A stretch of DNA of 64,000 bases from Pocillopora damicornis (lineage: Eukaryota), in assembly GCF_003704095.1 (NCBI RefSeq), contig NW_020844656.1, forward strand, positions 434,001 to 498,000, read 5' to 3'. The notes beneath the pieces were generated by a model. The model had not been told where the DNA came from. It was given only the letters and a program-made list of their open reading frames with translations, and did no database searches. Each line of letters starts with the position of its first letter. Positions within the stretch are counted from its first letter, which is position 1. This document shows, piece after piece, positions 17,909-27,596 of this stretch. A program made the translations under genes and the position numbers.

Positions 17909-20900
17909 CTATACATACGACTCGTAAAAGTAAGATGGCCGAGAGTGAACAGAAGTTGCTATTTCACTTTTAACATCATTTCTCCAAGCGACATTCCACC
18001 ATAGGGGTCTCAAACCATTTATTACAACGAATAGCAAACCGAGTACATCTGCCAGAACAGCCATCCACAACGCAGCTTTCCCTAACAGGGCCGCAATCAC
18101 GATGGCCAGCTTCAAAATGACGGAGAACGAGATGTTTTCTGCTACGACACGACGGCAGAAACGGCCGAGTTGTACCAGTTCCGGTATTTTCGTCAAGTTG
18201 TTGCTCATCAGTGCCACATCTGCCGCCTCCACTGCTAAGGCCGTTCCCCCAGCGCCCATTGCGATACCAATATTCGCTGCGGCAAGGGCTGGGCCATCGT
18301 TGACGCCATCGCCGACCATACCCACAATGATTTTGTCGCTGTCACGTGATTTTACAGCATTGTAGCGGTGACGGGAACAGCAACAAGCGTACGGTAACAT
18401 ACACCTCCTAGTCTGTTGATCGTCGCCAAGCACCTCGCATTCCACGATTTGCATTCCACCTTGTCTCTCCTCGATCCACGACAGTTTGTCCTGAGGTTTC
18501 ATGTCGGCGATGCACTCGTCCAAGCTTAAGTTACTCTTCACGGCCATGGCTGTACGAGAGTTATCACCAGTGATCATGGCAGTCTGGACACGAGTTTTTC
18601 GTAACCAGTCCAACGCGCCACGACTTTCTGATCTAATAGTGTCAGCAAGAGCGATCATCATGGCCAGTTTACCATCCACAGCCATGAAGACCACAGTTTT
18701 ACTCTCGTTACACCAAGTGATATACTTCTCTTCCATACACTTATTCAGCGCTTTGTTGCCAACACGCTTTAGGAATTCGTAATTACCGATCTGCACATGA
18801 TGACCTCCGACAACACCAGAAATACCTTGTCCTTCGTGAAGTTTAAAGCATTTTACTTCCGGAAGGCTGGAGGATTGTGACTTGCGCATTTCCGAAACAC
18901 AACCACTAAATTCGCTTACTATGGCAGCCGCAAGAGGGTGGCTGGACTTGCTCTCAAGCGCAGCTGCTAGGCGTAAAGCTGATCGTTCTTTCACTCCAAA
19001 AACGCATTCTATGTCAACAACTTGAAACTTTCCTTCTGTCAATGTTCCAGTTTTATCAAACGCAAGGACCTGCAACTGAGCGAGGGTCTCGAGGTGAACT
19101 CCACCTTTGATCAGTGCTCCTTTACGCGCCGCTGCAGTGATACCACAGACCATAGCAATAGGGGTGGACATAACGAGGGCGCAGGGGCACGCTATGACCA
19201 GAAGGACAAGGGCTCGTTCTCCCCACATCTTTAGCTCCTGTGAGTAGGTTCCCACGCCTGCAGCACCAAGAATGGCTGGAATAACAAATACTAGAGCTGC
19301 AACAACGACCACAGTTGGAGTGTAATACTTGGCAAACCGATTTATGGCGACTTCGATCCTTCCTGAACCAGTTTGGGCTTCCTGAACTAGTTGTGCAACT
19401 TTAGAAACTGTGGAAGATGTCGAGTCTGATGTGGTATTCACTTCCAAGTAGCCATTTTGATTAATCGTTCCGCTAAATACTTTAGATCCCACAGTTTTTT
19501 CAACGGGCACAGATTCACCAGAAACCGTACTTTCGTCCACAGCAGCTCGTCCTTTTATGACTTCACCATCCAAAGGAATAAACTCTCCTGGCCTAATGGC
19601 GATAGTGGTTCCAATAGCAACTGATTCCACCAATACACATTCGCCAGTGTTCGCTAGTATTGCCACCCGCGGCGCTTTTAGCATGAGCCCAGAGATTGTC
19701 CGATGGACTTTAAACATGCAAAACTCTTGCAAGGCTTCGGCGAAGGAGAATACGTAAACTACAGCGGCGCCGTCCAACCACTCCTCAATGCTAAGCGTTC
19801 CCGCTATGGCAATGAGTATCAGAATATTGATGTCGACGCTACAGGTTTTAAGAGAAACATACGTTTTCTGGAGGACTGGAAATATACCGAACACGATTTC
19901 CGCAATGGCCGGCCATCTGTACCAGGACGCATCACAGAAGAACGCTACAACACCTGTCATCAGGAGAATGGTTTGGAGCAGAAGATAAATCAGAAAAGTC
20001 GATAAGGACGGCGGGAGACTTTTACTATCATCGTGTTCCTGGGACCCAGTCTCCATGACGCTCGCGCCCAGATGGTTTCGGTTGAGTGTGTCAACAAGCT
20101 CGGTAGCTGACGTCACTTCTGGGTCGTGACGGACGTACACGACTCTCCCGATCACATTGACTGCGATTGATTTCACTCCTTCCAATGGTTCTAAGGATTC
20201 TTGAACGAGTGTGCTTTCCATCGCACAGCAAATGTTTTGCACTCGCAGCTTAGTGGTACTTTCGCGTATCACGGGTTTCTTCTTTGAGCTGTGGTCGCTT
20301 TCCTGAATACCGGGTGACGTGGGAGGGGTGAGAGGATAGAAACCATTGCGGTTTGTCACTGAGATTCTACTGCCAGATAGTGATCGATCGCAAAGTCCCT
20401 CGACAGACAATTTACGCTGGGATTTTTGGTAGCGATTGTCCCCACGTGGTTTTCGCGTGGAACCACTACAAGCTTGACTCTCACAGCAGTTGTCTTCAGG
20501 CGGAGAACACGTGACAGTTAATTGTGGATTGCGTGTCTGACATGTCAACTGACCACATGAAGACCGACGAGGGCTACCACTTTCGCAGCAAGTTGACACG
20601 GAGATTGCATCCGCTGAACTGGACGGTCTACCACTGTCTTTATCCGTGTGGCTGCAATTCGTTTGACAAGAATCACTCCAGTCGTCTGCCACAGTTCTAC
20701 CGCAACAATCAGCGCTGGTTCTTCCCGAAGGCCCACCGGACTCAGTTGACTTACTCTCTGGGATTTCCCTCTCAGAGCAACAACCTCGACATGGTGATGA
20801 GTCTGGCATAGCAGTAGCTTGTGCCGGTTGCTCAGACGCTTTTTCACTACAAGTGTCTTCTTTCTCTTGTTGTGAATTCTCCTGAGACGAGCAGCTGCCT

Positions 20901-21277
20901 TTGACAGGTTCACCTATTCTTACATCGTTGACAGTAGTCGAGCAACACTTACTTTGGAAACATTCGGCTGCTTCATCGCTTGGCTGTTTGGCTGAAGCAG
21001 AAGGACAAGGACTACACAGAGTTTCTTCATTGCAAGAATCCTTCTCATCATCGCAGCAGCTTTTGGAACGAGCAGACACACACGGGTCTCTCGTCTCCTC
21101 TTCTCCATACGAATCTATCCCATCCTCGCAAAAGCTTTCAATTTTTCCTGTTGTAGAAACAAAACATAGGTTGCTCATCTTTTCTTCGTTACAGTAAGTT
21201 TCGGACGGGTATAGATTCATATCATTCACTACCACAATACTTTGCCTCAAAATTACACTTCGCTGCAATCTCACCAT
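17909..21277 (-). CDS. P1B-2 heavy-metal (Zn/Cd/Pb-type) P-type ATPase, HMA2/3/4-like; single coding exon, 1122 aa
   Basis: Motifs: DKTGTLT phosphorylation site, SGES (TGES variant), SHPL, TGDN, GDGVNDGPAL. P1B-2 membrane signature CPCALVMSTP, ENISFSVILK (N-x7-K) and WMAVLAD. HMA domain with ICCAME. An in-frame TGA lies two codons upstream of the ATG. Confidence 0.93.
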   Translation of the reverse strand: MVRLQRSVILRQSIVVVNDMNLYPSETYCNEEKMSNLCFVSTTGKIESFCEDGIDSYGEEETRDPCVSARSKSCCDDEKDSCNEETLCSPCPSASAKQPSDEAAECFQSKCCSTTVNDVRIGEPVKGSCSSQENSQQEKEDTCSEKASEQPAQATAMPDSSPCRGCCSEREIPESKSTESGGPSGRTSADCCGRTVADDWSDSCQTNCSHTDKDSGRPSSSADAISVSTCCESGSPRRSSCGQLTCQTRNPQLTVTCSPPEDNCCESQACSGSTRKPRGDNRYQKSQRKLSVEGLCDRSLSGSRISVTNRNGFYPLTPPTSPGIQESDHSSKKKPVIRESTTKLRVQNICCAMESTLVQESLEPLEGVKSIAVNVIGRVVYVRHDPEVTSATELVDTLNRNHLGASVMETGSQEHDDSKSLPPSLSTFLIYLLLQTILLMTGVVAFFCDASWYRWPAIAEIVFGIFPVLQKTYVSLKTCSVDINILILIAIAGTLSIEEWLDGAAVVYVFSFAEALQEFCMFKVHRTISGLMLKAPRVAILANTGECVLVESVAIGTTIAIRPGEFIPLDGEVIKGRAAVDESTVSGESVPVEKTVGSKVFSGTINQNGYLEVNTTSDSTSSTVSKVAQLVQEAQTGSGRIEVAINRFAKYYTPTVVVVAALVFVIPAILGAAGVGTYSQELKMWGERALVLLVIACPCALVMSTPIAMVCGITAAARKGALIKGGVHLETLAQLQVLAFDKTGTLTEGKFQVVDIECVFGVKERSALRLAAALESKSSHPLAAAIVSEFSGCVSEMRKSQSSSLPEVKCFKLHEGQGISGVVGGHHVQIGNYEFLKRVGNKALNKCMEEKYITWCNESKTVVFMAVDGKLAMMIALADTIRSESRGALDWLRKTRVQTAMITGDNSRTAMAVKSNLSLDECIADMKPQDKLSWIEERQGGMQIVECEVLGDDQQTRRCMLPYACCCSRHRYNAVKSRDSDKIIVGMVGDGVNDGPALAAANIGIAMGAGGTALAVEAADVALMSNNLTKIPELVQLGRFCRRVVAENISFSVILKLAIVIAALLGKAALWMAVLADVLGLLFVVINGLRPLWWNVAWRNDVKSEIATSVHSRPSYFYESYV

Positions 21278-21557
21278 TTTTCAGGAAGGGAAAAACATTT
21301 TCCAAGTCTTGACGTCCATGGTAACACTCGCCACATCCGCAAGAGTCTTCGGGTAAATCATCCGAACAACAGCCGCAGTGAAATTCTTGACACATCGGTA
21401 CTTAATTCTGTAAGCAATAAAGATAATCTAAGAACTAAATTGTAATTAAAAAGTTCATCCAATTTTTTACGGTGTTACACCTTATCATGAACAAAACATG
21501 CTTTCTCTTGAAGATATGGCCTTGCGTCAGGAGGCCAAGAAAAAAAATGAAAACAAA

Positions 21558-21742
21558 GGGATAAGTTTCCAAGGAAACGATGGTGCTGCGTCGGCGGGAG
21601 AGTATAACAGCTAACAGGGTTATTTACCTTCATTAACTGAGTTCATAACGTAAACTAGCCACCGTAAAGAGTTATAAAACAGCTTTACAAACCTTTACGG
21701 TGGCCGATTTACGTTATCAACTCAGTTAATAAAACAAAATTA
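21558..21742. mobile_element. Second copy of the same PLE-like inverted-repeat family, central motif deleted
   Basis: Shares gaaac..tggtgctgc...gagagtataacag and aactgagtt..taacgtaaa...tttacgttatcaactcagtt with the 1395-1623 and 61705-61945 copies. Confidence 0.6.
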
Positions 21743-24700
21743 GCCCATCCCAACCCCCCCCTTCGAAAAAAAAATGGTTGCAAAGGAGACTTGATGTTGC
21801 GTGACAAGTCGAGAGCTACACAATAATCGTTTGTCACATTCCCAGTAAGTCACACCAAAGCGTGCGCTCAATTGAAGCATTACGTTCACCAAATTATATG
21901 ACATGCAAGGAAAATAGTTAGACTGACGTCCCACAAATGAATCAGAAGTAGAAATAATAACTTTCCGCCTATCGGATTAAAAAATGCCCAACGTGGATAC
22001 GCAAGAATCTCGCACCCGGCTCCGCTGCTACTTACAAGTCAGGGTCAATTCGACACTTTAAGCTCTGTTCGATGTTCGTCCTGGTGTCTATTACAATTTC
22101 GAATTTTGATATAGTTTGATTTACTTATCAAGATCCTTTCACAAACTCGCACATACCTTAAATATTTTCAAAGATTCGGCAACGATGGCAGTGTTTCATC
22201 CGCTTTTCAACAAGTAAAAATGCACGTTAAGACAGAGATTGTGAAATACTAATGTCGACGTGTGAAGAGCAAGCTTCAAGATTGGCTAATTCAATTTCGT
22301 CACGAAATCTTCTGAAACTGATAGTTTATATAACATGACAGATGTCATGTTATATAATTGCACATGGTTTTTGTTTCTAAATTTTCGGGAATTTGATATC
22401 TTGCATTATGCTTTCGAATTGTCTTAGCTTTTCTTCTTCCTTTCAAATTCAACTTAAGTCTCGTTCTTTGATCAATGTGCTTTTTACACCGACAGTGAAA
22501 GGACAGAAAGCTGATTGCTTATCTTCAGATACTCCTTGACCCTCCACGGTGTCTTCAAAACCTTTTGATACCTTTTGATTTGTGTTACATAACCCTTTGA
22601 TTCGTGTAACCTTTTGTACATTAAAAGAAAATAGATTGGGGTGTTACTTGCTGTTTCTCAATGCCGGAGAGAAGACAGGTGAGGAGTCCAAAGGCGCCGT
22701 CTCATAAACTTAAAAACTTCGTAGGTTCTCCGACGTTCTACTGCATCTCTAAATCGGATGGCAAAATCGCACAGAATGACGCGCTTGTGCAGACGAACCT
22801 TGGCTGCACTCATACTAAATTTACGAGGAAAAAAATCAATTTCGGGGGTGTCAGCAGAATCATTTGACCTTCGTAATTGGCTCTTCCTGAATATTTTTGC
22901 ACAACGAATCAGGATTCATCAGCGATTTTTGTTTTCGATATCTACAATTCATTCATTTTTTTTTGTTGCACTACATCACGAAATTCAAGATTCCCAAGTT
23001 TAAAACACGAAAATTAATGATTCCTTCTAATATCACATGAAACATGATCCCCATTTATCTCCCAAAATTAATTTGTGAAGCGGCGGAGAACTTATTCGTG
23101 CATCCTTTACCGTTAAGAGAGATTCTAGCCTATTACTGGGACTTTCCGGCACTGCACCGCATCGATTGAGATAGGTTTACCACTCCAGGTAATATAAAGC
23201 GACAAAAAGTAAAACAATCCTGCTACTTTGCCTGGCATTTTGGACCTCAAAAAACGTTATTTCATTTTGTACACCAGGTATAAATTACACAACGCTCACA
23301 CATACACACCTTTTGTTCACCTTTCATGAGAGTGGGCCGTATTAATGACAGTAACAACAAACGCGGGCTTGTACATGTAACGATGCGCGTCTAAAAATTA
23401 TCGTGATCTCCCTATGAAATGCTATGTTACGTAGGATTTTATAGTACACTTTATCCCCACAAAAACTTGGCGCGTTTTCGGGTGAAAAATTCAGTTCTTA
23501 GTTGGCCAAATTTCAACTGTTAGCTTGTGGTACACTAGAATAACAAATAAATTTGAATCAACATAAAGCATTGGAAAGTCAACAATACCTTACGCTGATA
23601 AGGAATTGTAAGGTAAGCCATGTTATTCATTTGCAAGTATAAAGTCCCTTTTCAACAGTAAAGAATGCCATGGGAATGAACCAGCTCATTAGCATAGGAA
23701 TAATGCCTCTTTGTGCCATCAAACTCTTGCAAAGACACGCTTTAAACTGAAATCTTGTTTAGAAATTTGGTAAAAACTGAGACAGACTTAGGATGTAAAT
23801 TTTGGCGTTCAAAATCGATCCGAAAACAAACTACTTAATCACTATGCTTTATCTACCTACTTTGATAAGCACTCGCCAAAAATGTCATAACATTCATTCT
23901 AAAGGATCATCGATCTTACAACAATGTTTCTAAACCACAAAAAAAAACAGATAACAAAATAAGGTAAACTTGCATGAAAGGATTGCAAAGTTATAGGAAT
24001 TTTTGCACAAAATATATGTACGTCAATTATGTTCTACCCTAAGCAGTTCGATTGATATTTCAGGGGGCTGCAACCATCAATAAATCGCTCATACAAAAAA
24101 AGTAAACGCCAATTACGGTCAGTACAAAAAAAAAAAAAAAATACCCGAGCTTTTACCTTGCGGTGGTGATCATACGGCGTTCCATCTAAGATCTAAGTGA
24201 TGTTTGAACATAACTGAACAAAAAAATATTTTACGTCCATTTAACCGTCAATTAGCTAACTGTGCTAAGCGCAGCTAAGACGTACTACCCCCAAAAACCA
24301 CGTACGAATCTCAGTTGAATTAAGTTAGTAATTGGAACATTGCAACTCTGATCGCAACCGATCTCAGCCACAAAAATCGTCCGTTTTCGCAGAATAAACT
24401 CAAAATTAAACCGGTCACGCTTATCGAATTATCAGCAATATCAAACAGGTGATCGATATGTTACTTACAAAGTGAATGTGGCCTCAATAAAGCTTCCATT
24501 GTCAGTGCTTTTTTCAAAATTGGACATTTCCCAAGGTGTGGTCGCTCTTAAATAAGGAGAGAACGGGTGGCCAAAATGGCCCCGTTTCAAATCTGCAATT
24601 AGAATTTTTAAACACGGAATGTGGAAGGACAAATTGCAAATGTATCTGAAATGGTTTTTCACGGAAAAATACACAAATAAAAGTTGAAACAAATTATTTT

Positions 24701-27381
24701 GAAGGTCTAAAATTAAATCATGAATTTCTTATCAGGAACCTAAAATTTTGCTCAATGAATAAACAAATGAAAGATTTTAACTTCAGTCATATTTCCAAAC
24801 GAAATGAAAGTCAAGTAATTAAAAACAAGGTTATTTAGGAATTCATAACTAGAATCTGTATTCATTTGAAATAAACAGCAAAGGAAATGTAAACAAAATT
24901 TGTTATGAACAAACATCACAGATAAAGGGATCTGGTTCACATTTTGCACACTTGTCTCTGACAGTTTGAACCAATGAAACACATGTTGAAAAATAAATAT
25001 TCCACGTTATCAGCTCACCAAGGAGGTGACAAGATTTCAAAAAAATTAGGCTCAGCCACAATCTGCTAATACCCAAATAATTGTTATATTGCTCAAGACT
25101 GTATGGTTGCTGTATATAACACATCCAAAGTGTCAGTAGTGAATAATTACATACCAATTAGGAGTTGTAGTGTTTAAAGGAGTGATTTTTTTTTCTATTT
25201 TAACATTTTAACAGGAAACTCCTACTTACACAATCACATTTTAAAGTATATAGATTATGGGAATTAAACAAATAATCAACTCGAAGATATGGAATTTATC
25301 TTGTATCAAATCCTCTGATGTAACATGGAATGATATGTCTGGCACTTGCCAAGGAGAATGTTGCCTAAGATCTGAGAAGAGGAAGGGTTCACACATTTCT
25401 TGAGAGTATGAGGATATGTGACACAGATTACAATCAATGTTCATGAAATTTTGCAAAATTTCATTGGAAAACTTGCTTCTATGACAAAATCAACTAGAAC
25501 AACAACACCAAAAAATTCTAAAAAAAGTGCAATTCATTTTAGCTGTTTTCTAATCAGAGCCAAACACTTGTCATACCATGAATGATAAAAAATTGCTCAA
25601 GTCATTCAAATATTTCTGAAGAGTTACAACCAGTAGCTGGAGAATTCTTTGTTATCCAACACTATGAATGACATACGACAAGTTCATAACATTTTCAGGA
25701 AGAATGTCCACTAAGTCGCTCATGAGCTGACCTTCATAACCCATACCACTCTAAATAAGAGACAGACACATCTTACTGACAGACACACCCTATGAGCAAA
25801 AATTTGCATCAAGTCAATGTCTTGCTCATCTGTAAACATTTAGAGCCAGTAATTTACATGCAGTCTAACCCAAACTGCAGTTTTACACTTGAAGTGGGCC
25901 TAGTTATTCTCTATAAGAAGGTTGATTTAATGAAATAAATGTCCTTCCACTCTATGTTTTTTAGCCCTCTTGACACTATTCACAAAAATAAATGTTCAGG
26001 TAAAAGGTTTGGTCAAATTGAAAATAGTTTGGAACGTGGTTCAAATAACTAGCCCATACACTGTCTTAGCCACTCAAAAAGTGCAAAAAGCTTTCTCTTG
26101 CAGTTCTGAAAAGTTCCCACAAGCTTATTGTACACCTAGCCCAAATGTTATTTCTTTAACCATGGTGTTAGTCAATGCATGACACAAGAATACTTGGAGA
26201 AAAAAAAAATCTTAAGAGTTGCAAGCTTAAGGTTGAGAGTAGCAAGGGGTCCTAATCCCACTTCATACACCACCTTAGAAAATCACAGATTACATGTACT
26301 TTAAATAGTATTTCATGCATCACAAATTTAACAGAGAATACTTTAATTATTAACACCTTGCCACCCTCAAGATAAACCTGTGACTTTTCAGAGCCATGTT
26401 CAGATGCTACAATGCTGAGCAACTGGGTATTACTTTTAACTAAGCCATTAAACCAAATTCATTGGTCCGGACGTGATGCTTTAGGACACAGAGCGACATG
26501 ATGATTGTTCAAGGATTGTAGCCAAAGTAAAGTTGCGGAAAACCTTGTTTAGTGTTTCACTTTAGCAGTGGAGCCCTTGTTTCTGATTTTGCGACATTCT
26601 CACTAGTAACAGTGAAATTCAAATGTAGAATTACACCAATGATATTTTACATGTTTATATACATCTAGAAGAATATCTAAATTCTTATAAAGTCGTGTAT
26701 TCACTTTATGTTAGTAGGTAAGATCCACGTTCGACAAAATAGAGATTTGAATCACGGGTTGGGAGATTTACGAACGATTTTTCGCTTATCCCTGTTGCTG
26801 TTCATCGCAGTTGGAAAATAACACTGACATCATTTCTTGATCAAAGGTCTTTAAAGTCTTTAAGACGCTTTTCGATAAAGGGTGCGTTTTACACGGCTTA
26901 AGTAACGAAAACGCAGTTTGTAAACAAATAATTTTAACAACCTACATCAGCGTCATGTCCCGTTGTCTTCAATTTCATTCAGAGCCAAGCGTTCAAATGC
27001 TATTTTAAAAAAAAGCTCTATACCAGTAATTTTTTTTTTGTGACACGGGTCTGTGATGATGTCTTTGTCTCTGGTAGAAGTTTCAGCGGCGAAACAAAAC
27101 GCCTTAAACGTGTCACAATGCAATGATGAGAACACAAACCTTTAAGGTGAAAGCGATGAGAAATCCTTGACTTCAAAAGAAAAAAGCCTTCGTCAACTCT
27201 TCCTCGAGACAGTCACGGACGCACGATTAAGAAGTTTTCATCACATCCATAGGTCACACCAAGGACAACCCAACAATGGTTTAACGATGTGCAGAAATCA
27301 CCTACGAAGTTGTTTTGAGCCTGCGAGTTGGTCAGTGAAGCACTGAAGTGTAAGCAGCTGCAGTGTTGTTGACTGTTCTCT

Positions 27382-27455
27382 CCGGAAGTGACGTTAACGA
27401 AAACTTCACTTCATACCGGAAGAACATTGCTATTGATCACGTGACTGATGGCGGC
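27382..27455 (+). promoter_or_regulatory. STX6 core promoter: overlapping ETS-CRE, CLEAR-like E-box and YY1 motif
   Basis: CCGGAAGTGACGT at 27382-27394; TCACGTGAC at 27437-27445; GATGGCGGC at 27447-27455; inside a CpG-rich island about 150-200 bp upstream of the ATG. Confidence 0.6.
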
Positions 27456-27596
27456 TATCATCAGCTGTGAGGCTTTTAGCGTCGTCGAGTATTCAACAGA
27501 ATTGTAAGCTTCTGTATCGGCCTCTCTCAACGTGGATTGCCTGTATCTCTTACTTTAGCGAGACATTTAATGTTATAGAACCGTTTTAATCAAGAG

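What the first reader, a model, noticed from the sequence alone, without database searches (positions are those of the whole stretch)
20280..21277. Metallothionein-like Cys-pair-rich N-terminal extension on the ATPase
Seen: about 330 low-complexity Ser/Glu/Asp-rich residues before the HMA domain, with about 30 Cys including six CC pairs (SCCD, KCCS, GCCS, DCCG, TCCE, NCCE). Established: plant HMA2/HMA4 carry disordered CC-pair-rich Zn/Cd-binding regulatory tails, but at the C-terminus. Inference: a convergent or relocated metal sensor/buffer module at the opposite end of the pump.
Basis: partly seen in the sequence, partly recalled or inferred. Interest (0 to 1): 0.7.

Follow-up and report, generated by a model that had tools for sequence, protein, structure and literature searches.

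The report
Coral zinc pump with cysteine tail
This coral gene encodes a zinc/cadmium-type membrane pump, of a class that a 2023 review says animals lack, and it starts with a long cysteine-rich tail that likely binds metal and likely regulates the pump.

Summary
The true ATG is at 21395. The real tail has 336 residues, 35 Cys and 7 CC pairs. The pump is a P1B-2 Zn/Cd ATPase found in stony corals, anemones, an octocoral, a jellyfish and Hydra. Its tree follows cnidarian phylogeny, and it sits among animal genes. This answers the contamination doubt about the Nematostella gene and contradicts the statement that animals have only P1B-1 pumps. 'Relocated from plant HMA4' is unsupported: the sister clade is a protist group, some members with N-terminal CC tails. 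Cys-rich regulatory tails are known (HMA4 C-terminus, yeast Pca1 N-terminus). The intron arose from former coding DNA. Metal binding and regulation are untested.

The parts
27140..27289 (-). Upstream non-coding exon, joined to 21407 across a 5732-nt GT..AG intron
   Evidence: Joint 21407/27140 in RNA runs X17 and X1; loose ends in X8 and X11 match 27149-27169
22158..22184 (-). 3' end of an alternative upstream non-coding exon (its full extent was not mapped)
   Evidence: Loose end of run X2 at 21409 matches 22159-22184, next to a GT donor; one run only
21275..21407 (-). First coding exon: ATG at 21395, in-frame TAA 9 nt upstream, 40 codons plus 1 base
   Evidence: covered by spliced RNA contigs
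21318..21395 (-).
   Evidence: Mean column identity 0.58 vs 0.17-0.25 in the linker over 52 rows; found in 40 of 68 long-tailed rows; single copy in the genome; metal binding inferred
21148..21274 (-). 127-nt intron (3n+1, with stops if retained) made from former coding sequence
   Evidence: Spliced in 6 of 6 RNA runs; matches Stylophora coding residues in two successive frames, 10/15 (E 1e-5) then 14/27 (E 4e-9)
20261..21147 (-). Ser/Glu/Asp/Cys-rich linker, residues 41-336, with six CC pairs at 21058-21053, 20947-20942, 20782-20777, 20707-20702, 20590-20585 and 20488-20483; predicted disordered
   Evidence: pLDDT<50 for residues 1-334; no Pfam family at E<=10
20048..20260 (-). HMA domain with a CCxxE-type motif (CCAME at 20230-20216), as in plant HMA2/HMA4
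   Evidence: PF00403; beta-alpha-beta-beta-alpha-beta in the model; CCxxE described in PMC6255694
17978..20047 (-). P1B-2 ATPase core without introns: CPC (19189-19181), DKTGT (19057-19043), Lys equivalent to ZntA K693 (18112-18110), Asp equivalent to ZntA D714 (18049-18047)
   Evidence: TIGR01512 430 bits, above its cut-off of 313.5; Cu model TIGR01511 below its cut-off; alignment to ZntA 4umv; RNA contigs continuous
18338..18454 (-). Cys- and Arg-rich insert in the P domain (CCC here), low confidence in the model
   Evidence: role unknown
17909..17923 (-). C-terminal E-S-Y-V and stop codon; resembles a class I PDZ-binding motif (pattern recalled)
   Evidence: [ST]x[VIL] ends 29 of 44 anthozoan rows vs 9 of 165 non-cnidarian rows

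Best explanation
The gene encodes a cnidarian P1B-2 ATPase, likely exporting Zn2+/Cd2+ from the cytosol, whose 336-residue N-terminal tail likely binds several metal ions and likely regulates the pump. Shown: the exon structure, the splicing, the transport-site residues, the conserved cap and the CC enrichment. Predicted: the linker is disordered. Inferred: (1) each CC pair, with nearby Asp/Glu/Cys, forms a Zn/Cd site like the di-Cys sites of HMA4's C-tail, so the linker is a high-capacity metal sponge whose size is tuned by tandem repeats; (2) the cap, with 7 Cys and 1-2 His at fixed spacing, folds around about two metal ions and is the actual switch; (3) at low metal the unloaded tail holds the pump inactive or away from the cell surface, and metal loading releases it and feeds ions to the CCxxE domain. 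My odds: tail binds Zn/Cd 0.85; binding regulates activity, location or stability 0.6.
For: P1B-2 identity; CPC, Lys and Asp are kept in 29 of 29 cnidarian rows. CC pairs total 341 vs 126.5 expected in 36 hand-picked tails, with p<0.05 in 34. Unrelated repeat units each carry a CC: period 32 in Montipora, 10 in the jellyfish Sanderia, 36 in Nematostella, and 17, 18, 29 and 30 in unnamed rows, which points to selection on CC number. Against Oculina P0019, 14 of 14 CC cysteines are kept vs 126 of 261 non-Cys residues; Fisher p<=0.002 for Cys vs other residues in 6 of 7 pairs. Flanks are mostly Ser, Asp, Glu and Lys. Cap columns are far more conserved than the linker. When a frameshift fell 15 codons into the linker, the cap stayed attached through a new intron, although an in-frame ATG lies right at 21277. 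Precedents: HMA4 di-Cys motifs bind about 11 Zn with KD<10 nM and are needed in vivo (PMC6255694); Pca1's Cys-rich N-tail binds Cd and masks a degron (PMC10654040; PMC11050377); the distal N-terminus of MmCadA autoinhibits (PMC13677743).
Against: No binding or activity data exist here. Single CC pairs are dispensable. Against Stylophora, Cys is no better kept than other residues (18/28 vs 176/257, p=0.67). The window's allele lacks one CC found in 26 of 27 close sequences, and the tail varies at 44/295 columns vs 28/784 in the core. Hydra and several coral paralogues have tails under 100 residues. The cap is absent from the Nematostella, jellyfish and several unnamed rows. AlphaFold gives the cap no confident fold (pLDDT 55, no metal modelled). 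The pairwise comparisons are not phylogenetically independent. The window protein has Ile and Asp where ZntA has M187 and E202.
Confidence: 0.62

Rival explanations
1. The tail is a passive, tethered metal buffer or donor: it binds Zn/Cd but does not switch the pump.
For: Length varies from 118 to 717 residues among 40 cap-bearing rows, and repeats arose independently. HMA2's C-tail is not essential in planta (PMC6255694 introduction).
Against: A buffer does not need a cap with fixed spacing or the conserved RISMTDCSGFYP-like segment before the HMA domain (23 of 32 rows).
Confidence: 0.2
2. The cysteines are not metal ligands but sites of S-acylation or redox modification that control trafficking.
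For: Cytosolic CC pairs can be acylated (recalled). The P-domain insert has Cys next to basic residues.
Against: The CC flanks in the tail are acidic or Ser-rich, and the tail sits on a heavy-metal pump. Similar di-Cys tails bind Zn in vitro.
Confidence: 0.08
3. The linker is a nearly neutral low-complexity expansion, and only the cap (or nothing) is functional.
For: High polymorphism, a 73-residue duplication in two close sequences, loss of 43 codons to an intron, and short-tailed paralogues.
Against: CC pairs are enriched 2.7-fold over composition across anthozoans and a jellyfish, and Cys is kept preferentially in 6 of 7 pairwise comparisons.
Confidence: 0.1

Closest known systems
Plant HMA2/HMA4 (P1B-2) with a di-Cys C-terminal tail
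   Same: P1B-2 core, CCxxE HMA domain, and a long tail with 6-13 di-Cys motifs. The best non-cnidarian hits include a Cryptomeria HMA2 at 40% identity.
   Different: The tail is N-terminal, and the C-tail is only about 25 residues with no Cys. No tail homology. Not the sister lineage. A fixed-spacing cap is present.
Yeast Pca1p cadmium pump
   Same: P1B pump with a Cys-rich N-terminal tail that senses Cd and controls delivery to the plasma membrane (PMC10654040; PMC11050377).
   Different: Sequences were not compared here. Pca1's tail hides a hydrophobic degron and binds Cd but not Zn. The coral linker is hydrophilic, and no degron was tested.
Bacterial ZntA and CadA
   Same: Transport residues C-P-C, F210, E214, K693 and D714 are kept. 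E. coli ZntA has a short CCCDGAC motif in its N-terminal domain (PMC10800456). MmCadA's distal N-terminus autoinhibits.
   Different: GxxCxxC instead of CCxxE; much shorter Cys segment; MmCadA regulation depends on His stretches.
Protist P1B-2 pumps of the sister clade (one named: Pelagophyceae sp., P0204)
   Same: Sister to the cnidarian clade (SH-aLRT 99). They share N-x-C-C in the HMA domain and a Cys after the N-domain HP motif. Six of 17 testable rows have N-tails of 230-360 residues with 4-11 CC.
Metallothioneins
   Same: The cap has 7 Cys in 24 residues with CxCC and CxCxxC spacing.
   Different: It is fused to a pump, the linker is only about 9% Cys over 300 residues, and no Pfam metallothionein model matches.

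Membership tests
P1B-2 (Zn/Cd) ATPase | P-type motifs: DKTGT, TGE-type (SGES here), GDGxND, N-domain HP | tested here: met
P1B-2 (Zn/Cd) ATPase | CPC plus N-x7-K-x(10-20)-D-x-G in the last helices (PMC6305203) | tested here: met
   CPC, Lys and Asp align to ZntA K693 and D714; kept in 29 of 29 cnidarian rows
P1B-2 (Zn/Cd) ATPase | Scores above the IB-2 family cut-off and below the IB-1 (Cu) cut-off | tested here: met
   TIGR01512 430 vs 313.5; TIGR01511 313 vs 397
P1B-2 (Zn/Cd) ATPase | Entry and exit residues of ZntA (M187, E202, F210, E214) | tested here: inconclusive
   F210 and E214 kept; Ile for M187 and Asp for E202 in this protein; HMA4 has Val at the cap position
P1B-2 (Zn/Cd) ATPase | Zn/Cd-stimulated ATP hydrolysis and transport | not testable with these tools
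   Needs an assay
Plant HMA2/HMA4 type | CCxxE N-terminal metal-binding domain | tested here: met
   CCAME
Plant HMA2/HMA4 type | Di-Cys-rich C-terminal extension | tested here: not met
   C-tail of about 25 residues with 0 Cys
Plant HMA2/HMA4 type | One clade with land-plant HMA2-4 | tested here: not met
   AU p=0.0002 against a cnidarian plus plant clade (the plant rows were picked after the tree was seen)
Metallothionein | Small free protein (PMC9777932 listing) | tested here: not met
   The tail is part of a 1119-aa pump, with continuous RNA contigs
Metallothionein | Match to a metallothionein family model | tested here: not met
   0 families at E<=10 for the cap and for the linker
Metallothionein | Metal-thiolate clusters | not testable with these tools
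   Needs spectroscopy or mass spectrometry
Pca1-type Cd-masked degron | N-terminal degron hidden on Cd binding | not tested
   No Pca1 sequence was fetched; needs a turnover assay
Intronization (intron made from exonic DNA) | Spliced in this lineage with canonical ends | tested here: met
   GT..AG, 6 of 6 RNA runs
Intronization (intron made from exonic DNA) | Homologous to sequence that is open in frame in outgroups | tested here: met
   Matches Stylophora, Oculina and two unnamed corals; 3 of 7 proteins gave no useful match
Intronization (intron made from exonic DNA) | Not spliced in outgroup mRNA | tested here: inconclusive
   The Stylophora RefSeq protein and two Logan members keep the segment, but no outgroup RNA was laid

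The most novel reading that the evidence does not exclude
Cnidarians are the one animal lineage with a P1B-2 zinc pump, taken up by their common ancestor from a stramenopile-type protist. In anthozoans the pump gained a new kind of N-terminal metal switch: a fixed Cys7/His cap that folds only on metal, followed by a di-Cys array whose capacity each lineage retunes by tandem repeats. The cap matters enough that a frameshift just behind it was absorbed by a new intron.
Probability: 0.3. Interest if true: 0.75.

Novelty: new variant of a known kind. Interest (0 to 1): 0.6.

Why it matters
A 2023 review states that animals have only P1B-1 pumps and calls the absence of Zn pumps in animals not well understood (PMC10654040). 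A 2014 survey found one in Nematostella and put it down to horizontal transfer or contamination (PMC3922081). The data here remove contamination: the gene is spliced, flanked by animal genes, and inherited across Cnidaria. That gives an animal system in which to ask what an ATP-driven Zn exporter is for, and a candidate for Zn/Cd handling in reef corals. The tail gives a natural series of 118-717 residues for testing how di-Cys arrays set metal sensing. The intron is a clean, recent case of intronization with a frameshift. Automatic annotations already call these proteins HMA2/HMA3-like, so the gene is not unknown to databases.

Tried and rejected
Start at 21277 and an intron-free gene: rejected by RNA joints. 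Assembly error as the source of the frameshift: rejected, because two DNA-like runs show no indel in the intron and a 57-aa read-through product has 9 members in the collection. Symbiont or bacterial contamination: rejected, since the neighbours are a nuclear receptor, DAXX, WDR47 and syntaxin 6 and the tree follows cnidarian phylogeny. Cap docking on the core with two Zn (complex prediction): no answer, score 0.00, alignment not used; this is no evidence either way. AlphaFold of the cap alone: pLDDT 55. Atlas: only generic P1B clusters for the whole Stylophora protein and no usable hit for its first 120 residues. Search for the cap on shorter proteins: one hit, the unspliced exon product; this word search has low sensitivity. 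A search with sister-clade protein P0215 found four unnamed close relatives and listed no recognisable cnidarian hit among its 120, which shows that the word search misses relatives. The careful bootstrap tree did not finish, so only quick trees are reported. Run X1 has depth of about 2 across introns, read as pre-mRNA or DNA background and not as intron retention. The Pca1 primary paper was not held. Three look-ups of earlier findings returned nothing.
Full report
Observation. The minus strand holds an open frame of 1122 codons from an ATG at 21277 to a stop at 17909. Shuffles give 2.4 CC on average (p=0.013). An HMA domain, an E1-E2 ATPase domain and a hydrolase domain follow. The counts are right for that reading.

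Organism and context. The core is 87% identical to Stylophora pistillata and 99% identical to many unnamed sequences. The host is a pocilloporid stony coral, likely Pocillopora; that name is my inference and comes from no call. Neighbouring frames encode a nuclear hormone receptor, a PH domain, syntaxin 6, a PDZ protein, WDR47 and DAXX. One copy was found in the genome, plus one distant match at 49% identity over 45 residues (only the best candidates are scored).

The real start. Most coral homologues begin M-C-Q-E. That motif lies in the window at 21395 in another frame. Removing a GT..AG segment, 21274-21148 (127 nt), gives 1119 residues, 1101 of them identical to P0005 without gaps. The joint is seen in 4 of 4 RNA runs and 2 of 2 (5 studies; 6 of the 14 runs on record as RNA were laid). 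It is absent from both DNA-like runs. A non-coding exon at 27140-27289 joins to 21407, and an in-frame TAA lies 9 nt before the ATG. The tail is thus 336 residues with 35 Cys and 7 CC. All runs are assembled contigs, which drop rare forms, so minor intron retention is not excluded.

The intron is former coding DNA. It translates to Stylophora residues in two successive frames: 10 of 15 identical (E 1e-5), then 14 of 27 (E 4e-9). Weaker matches were found to Oculina and two unnamed corals, and none of use in 3 of 7 proteins. The Stylophora segment is 43 codons (129 nt), two bases longer. In other corals the frame is open from the conserved Met on long contigs. Intronization is a known process, mostly without frameshift in human retrogenes (PMC3565874, abstract seen). 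Whether the splice sites or the deletion came first is not shown.

Anatomy of the tail. In a 55-row alignment (52 rows scored), mean identity to P0005 is 0.58 over residues 1-27, 0.17-0.25 over the linker, 0.76 over the HMA domain and 0.70 over the core. A cap pattern is present in 40 of 68 rows with tails of 100 residues or more. Two octocoral rows have a related pattern, and 13 of the 26 without it are unspliced readings of this same gene. The Cys were part of the search pattern, so their invariance there is by construction; Met1, Pro15 and His26 were not, and they are kept in 31 of 31 distinct caps. The cap is found in stony corals and Actinia but not in the Nematostella or jellyfish rows. 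In 36 tails picked by hand to limit redundancy (short tails and a frame-shifted model left out), CC pairs number 341 against 126.5 expected, with p<0.05 in 34. Tail length runs from 118 to 717 residues, with unrelated repeat units that each carry a CC. Against six other coral proteins Cys is kept preferentially (p<=0.002), but not against Stylophora (p=0.67). Among 27 distinct close sequences (3 dropped for a duplication or truncation), 44 of 295 tail columns vary against 28 of 784 core columns. AlphaFold gives pLDDT under 50 for residues 1-334 and a P1B fold for the rest. No Pfam family matches the cap or the linker.

Pump class. The cadmium-family model scores above its cut-off and the copper model below. 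The best solved relative is ZntA, with CPC, F210, E214, K693 and D714 matched, Ile at M187 and Asp at E202. The importance of these residues is from PMC6305203 (passages seen).

Range and origin. Named homologues come from Stylophora, Oculina, Orbicella, Montipora, Acropora, Actinia, Nematostella, Dendronephthya, Sanderia and Hydra. In a FastTree of 252 of 273 rows (21 dropped for short coverage), 29 rows form one clade (support 100) that splits Medusozoa from Anthozoa and octocorals from hexacorals; unnamed rows were assigned to it by similarity. Its sister is a group of 22 rows, one of them named Pelagophyceae. IQ-TREE quick trees on 65 and 43 rows give the same pairing (SH-aLRT 99, no bootstrap). 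A Cys after the N-domain HP motif occurs in 25 of 29 cnidarian rows, 20 of 22 sister rows and 0 of 201 others. N-x-C-C in the HMA domain occurs in 29 of 29, 17 of 22 and none of the others, though 59 of those lacked the region. A cnidarian plus land-plant clade is rejected (AU p=0.0002). Long N-tails are common outside cnidarians: 59 of 168 rows have 100 or more residues and 15 have three or more CC, one of these being cnidarian and some holding extra HMA domains. A full HMMER scan of 1.84 billion representatives showed a gap from 617 bits (Hydra) to 487 bits. Most rows are unnamed and the word search misses relatives, so other animals or holozoans are not excluded. Transfer from a protist into the cnidarian stem (about 0.5) and ancient retention with losses (about 0.4) both remain open. 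The intron-free core fits the first; Hanikenne and Baurain favour losses for this subgroup in general.

Mechanism. Shown: gene structure, splicing, class residues, cap conservation and CC enrichment. Inferred: the linker binds several Zn/Cd ions as HMA4's di-Cys tail does (about 11 Zn with KD<10 nM; PMC6255694, introduction and one discussion section read). The cap likely folds on metal and acts as the switch. Metal loading would release the pump from inhibition or retention, as in Pca1 (PMC10654040, section 4 part 1 of 2 read; PMC11050377, passages) and MmCadA (PMC13677743, passages). I give 0.62 to a metal-binding regulatory tail, 0.2 to a passive buffer, 0.1 to a near-neutral linker and 0.08 to non-metal Cys chemistry.

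Novelty. The notable points are the animal host, the undescribed cap and the new intron. Palmgren 2023 says animals have only P1B-1 pumps, and Hanikenne and Baurain 2014 took the Nematostella gene for transfer or contamination (passages seen). Six searches aimed at cnidarian or coral P1B-2 pumps listed no study of this gene beyond that sentence; I saw the listings only, and only the top 25-30 rows of the larger ones. Subscription journals and supplements were not seen and may hold a mention. Database names already read HMA2/HMA3-like. Verdict: a real feature with a corrected boundary, a new variant of a known kind, interest 0.6.

Noticed in passing
window 17912-17923: The protein ends in E-S-Y-V. 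The pattern [ST]x[VIL] ends 29 of 44 anthozoan rows vs 9 of 165 non-cnidarian rows, which suggests an animal-type PDZ-binding trafficking signal (pattern recalled).
   Followed up: partly
window 18338-18454: The P domain carries an insert with a Cys cluster next to Arg/Lys in the anthozoan rows examined; it is short and Cys-free in two medusozoan rows. It could be acylated or bind metal.
   Followed up: partly
P0060 (Acropora millepora model): Its tail has only 10 Cys and reads like another frame of the repeat region, while near-identical P0059, P0062 and P0063 have 45-53 Cys. This is a likely frameshift in the model or assembly.
   Followed up: no
P0020 and P0064; rows with longest contig 1,167,935: Oculina has adjacent locus tags for a long-tailed and a short-tailed paralogue, and seven proteins share one longest-contig length, which suggests tandem expansion in some corals. 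The window's genome shows one copy.
   Followed up: no
P0128 and P0131: A 73-residue tandem duplication inside the tail adds CC pairs in two members of the window protein's own 90% cluster.
   Followed up: partly
P0094 and P0095 (octocoral type): Their tails combine CC pairs with a His-rich stretch (36-44 His) and a different Cys cap, recalling the di-Cys plus His layout of HMA4.
   Followed up: no
window 21580-21750 and 25840-26020: Short dispersed repeats with very high contig depth in DNA-like and RNA runs. One RNA contig of run X9 runs unspliced from 21274 to 21742, a possible third 5' end.
   Followed up: no
window 27140-27500: The pump's upstream exon lies about 2.3 kb from the first syntaxin-6 frame seen on the opposite strand (29526), so the two genes are arranged head to head and may share a promoter region.
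   Followed up: no
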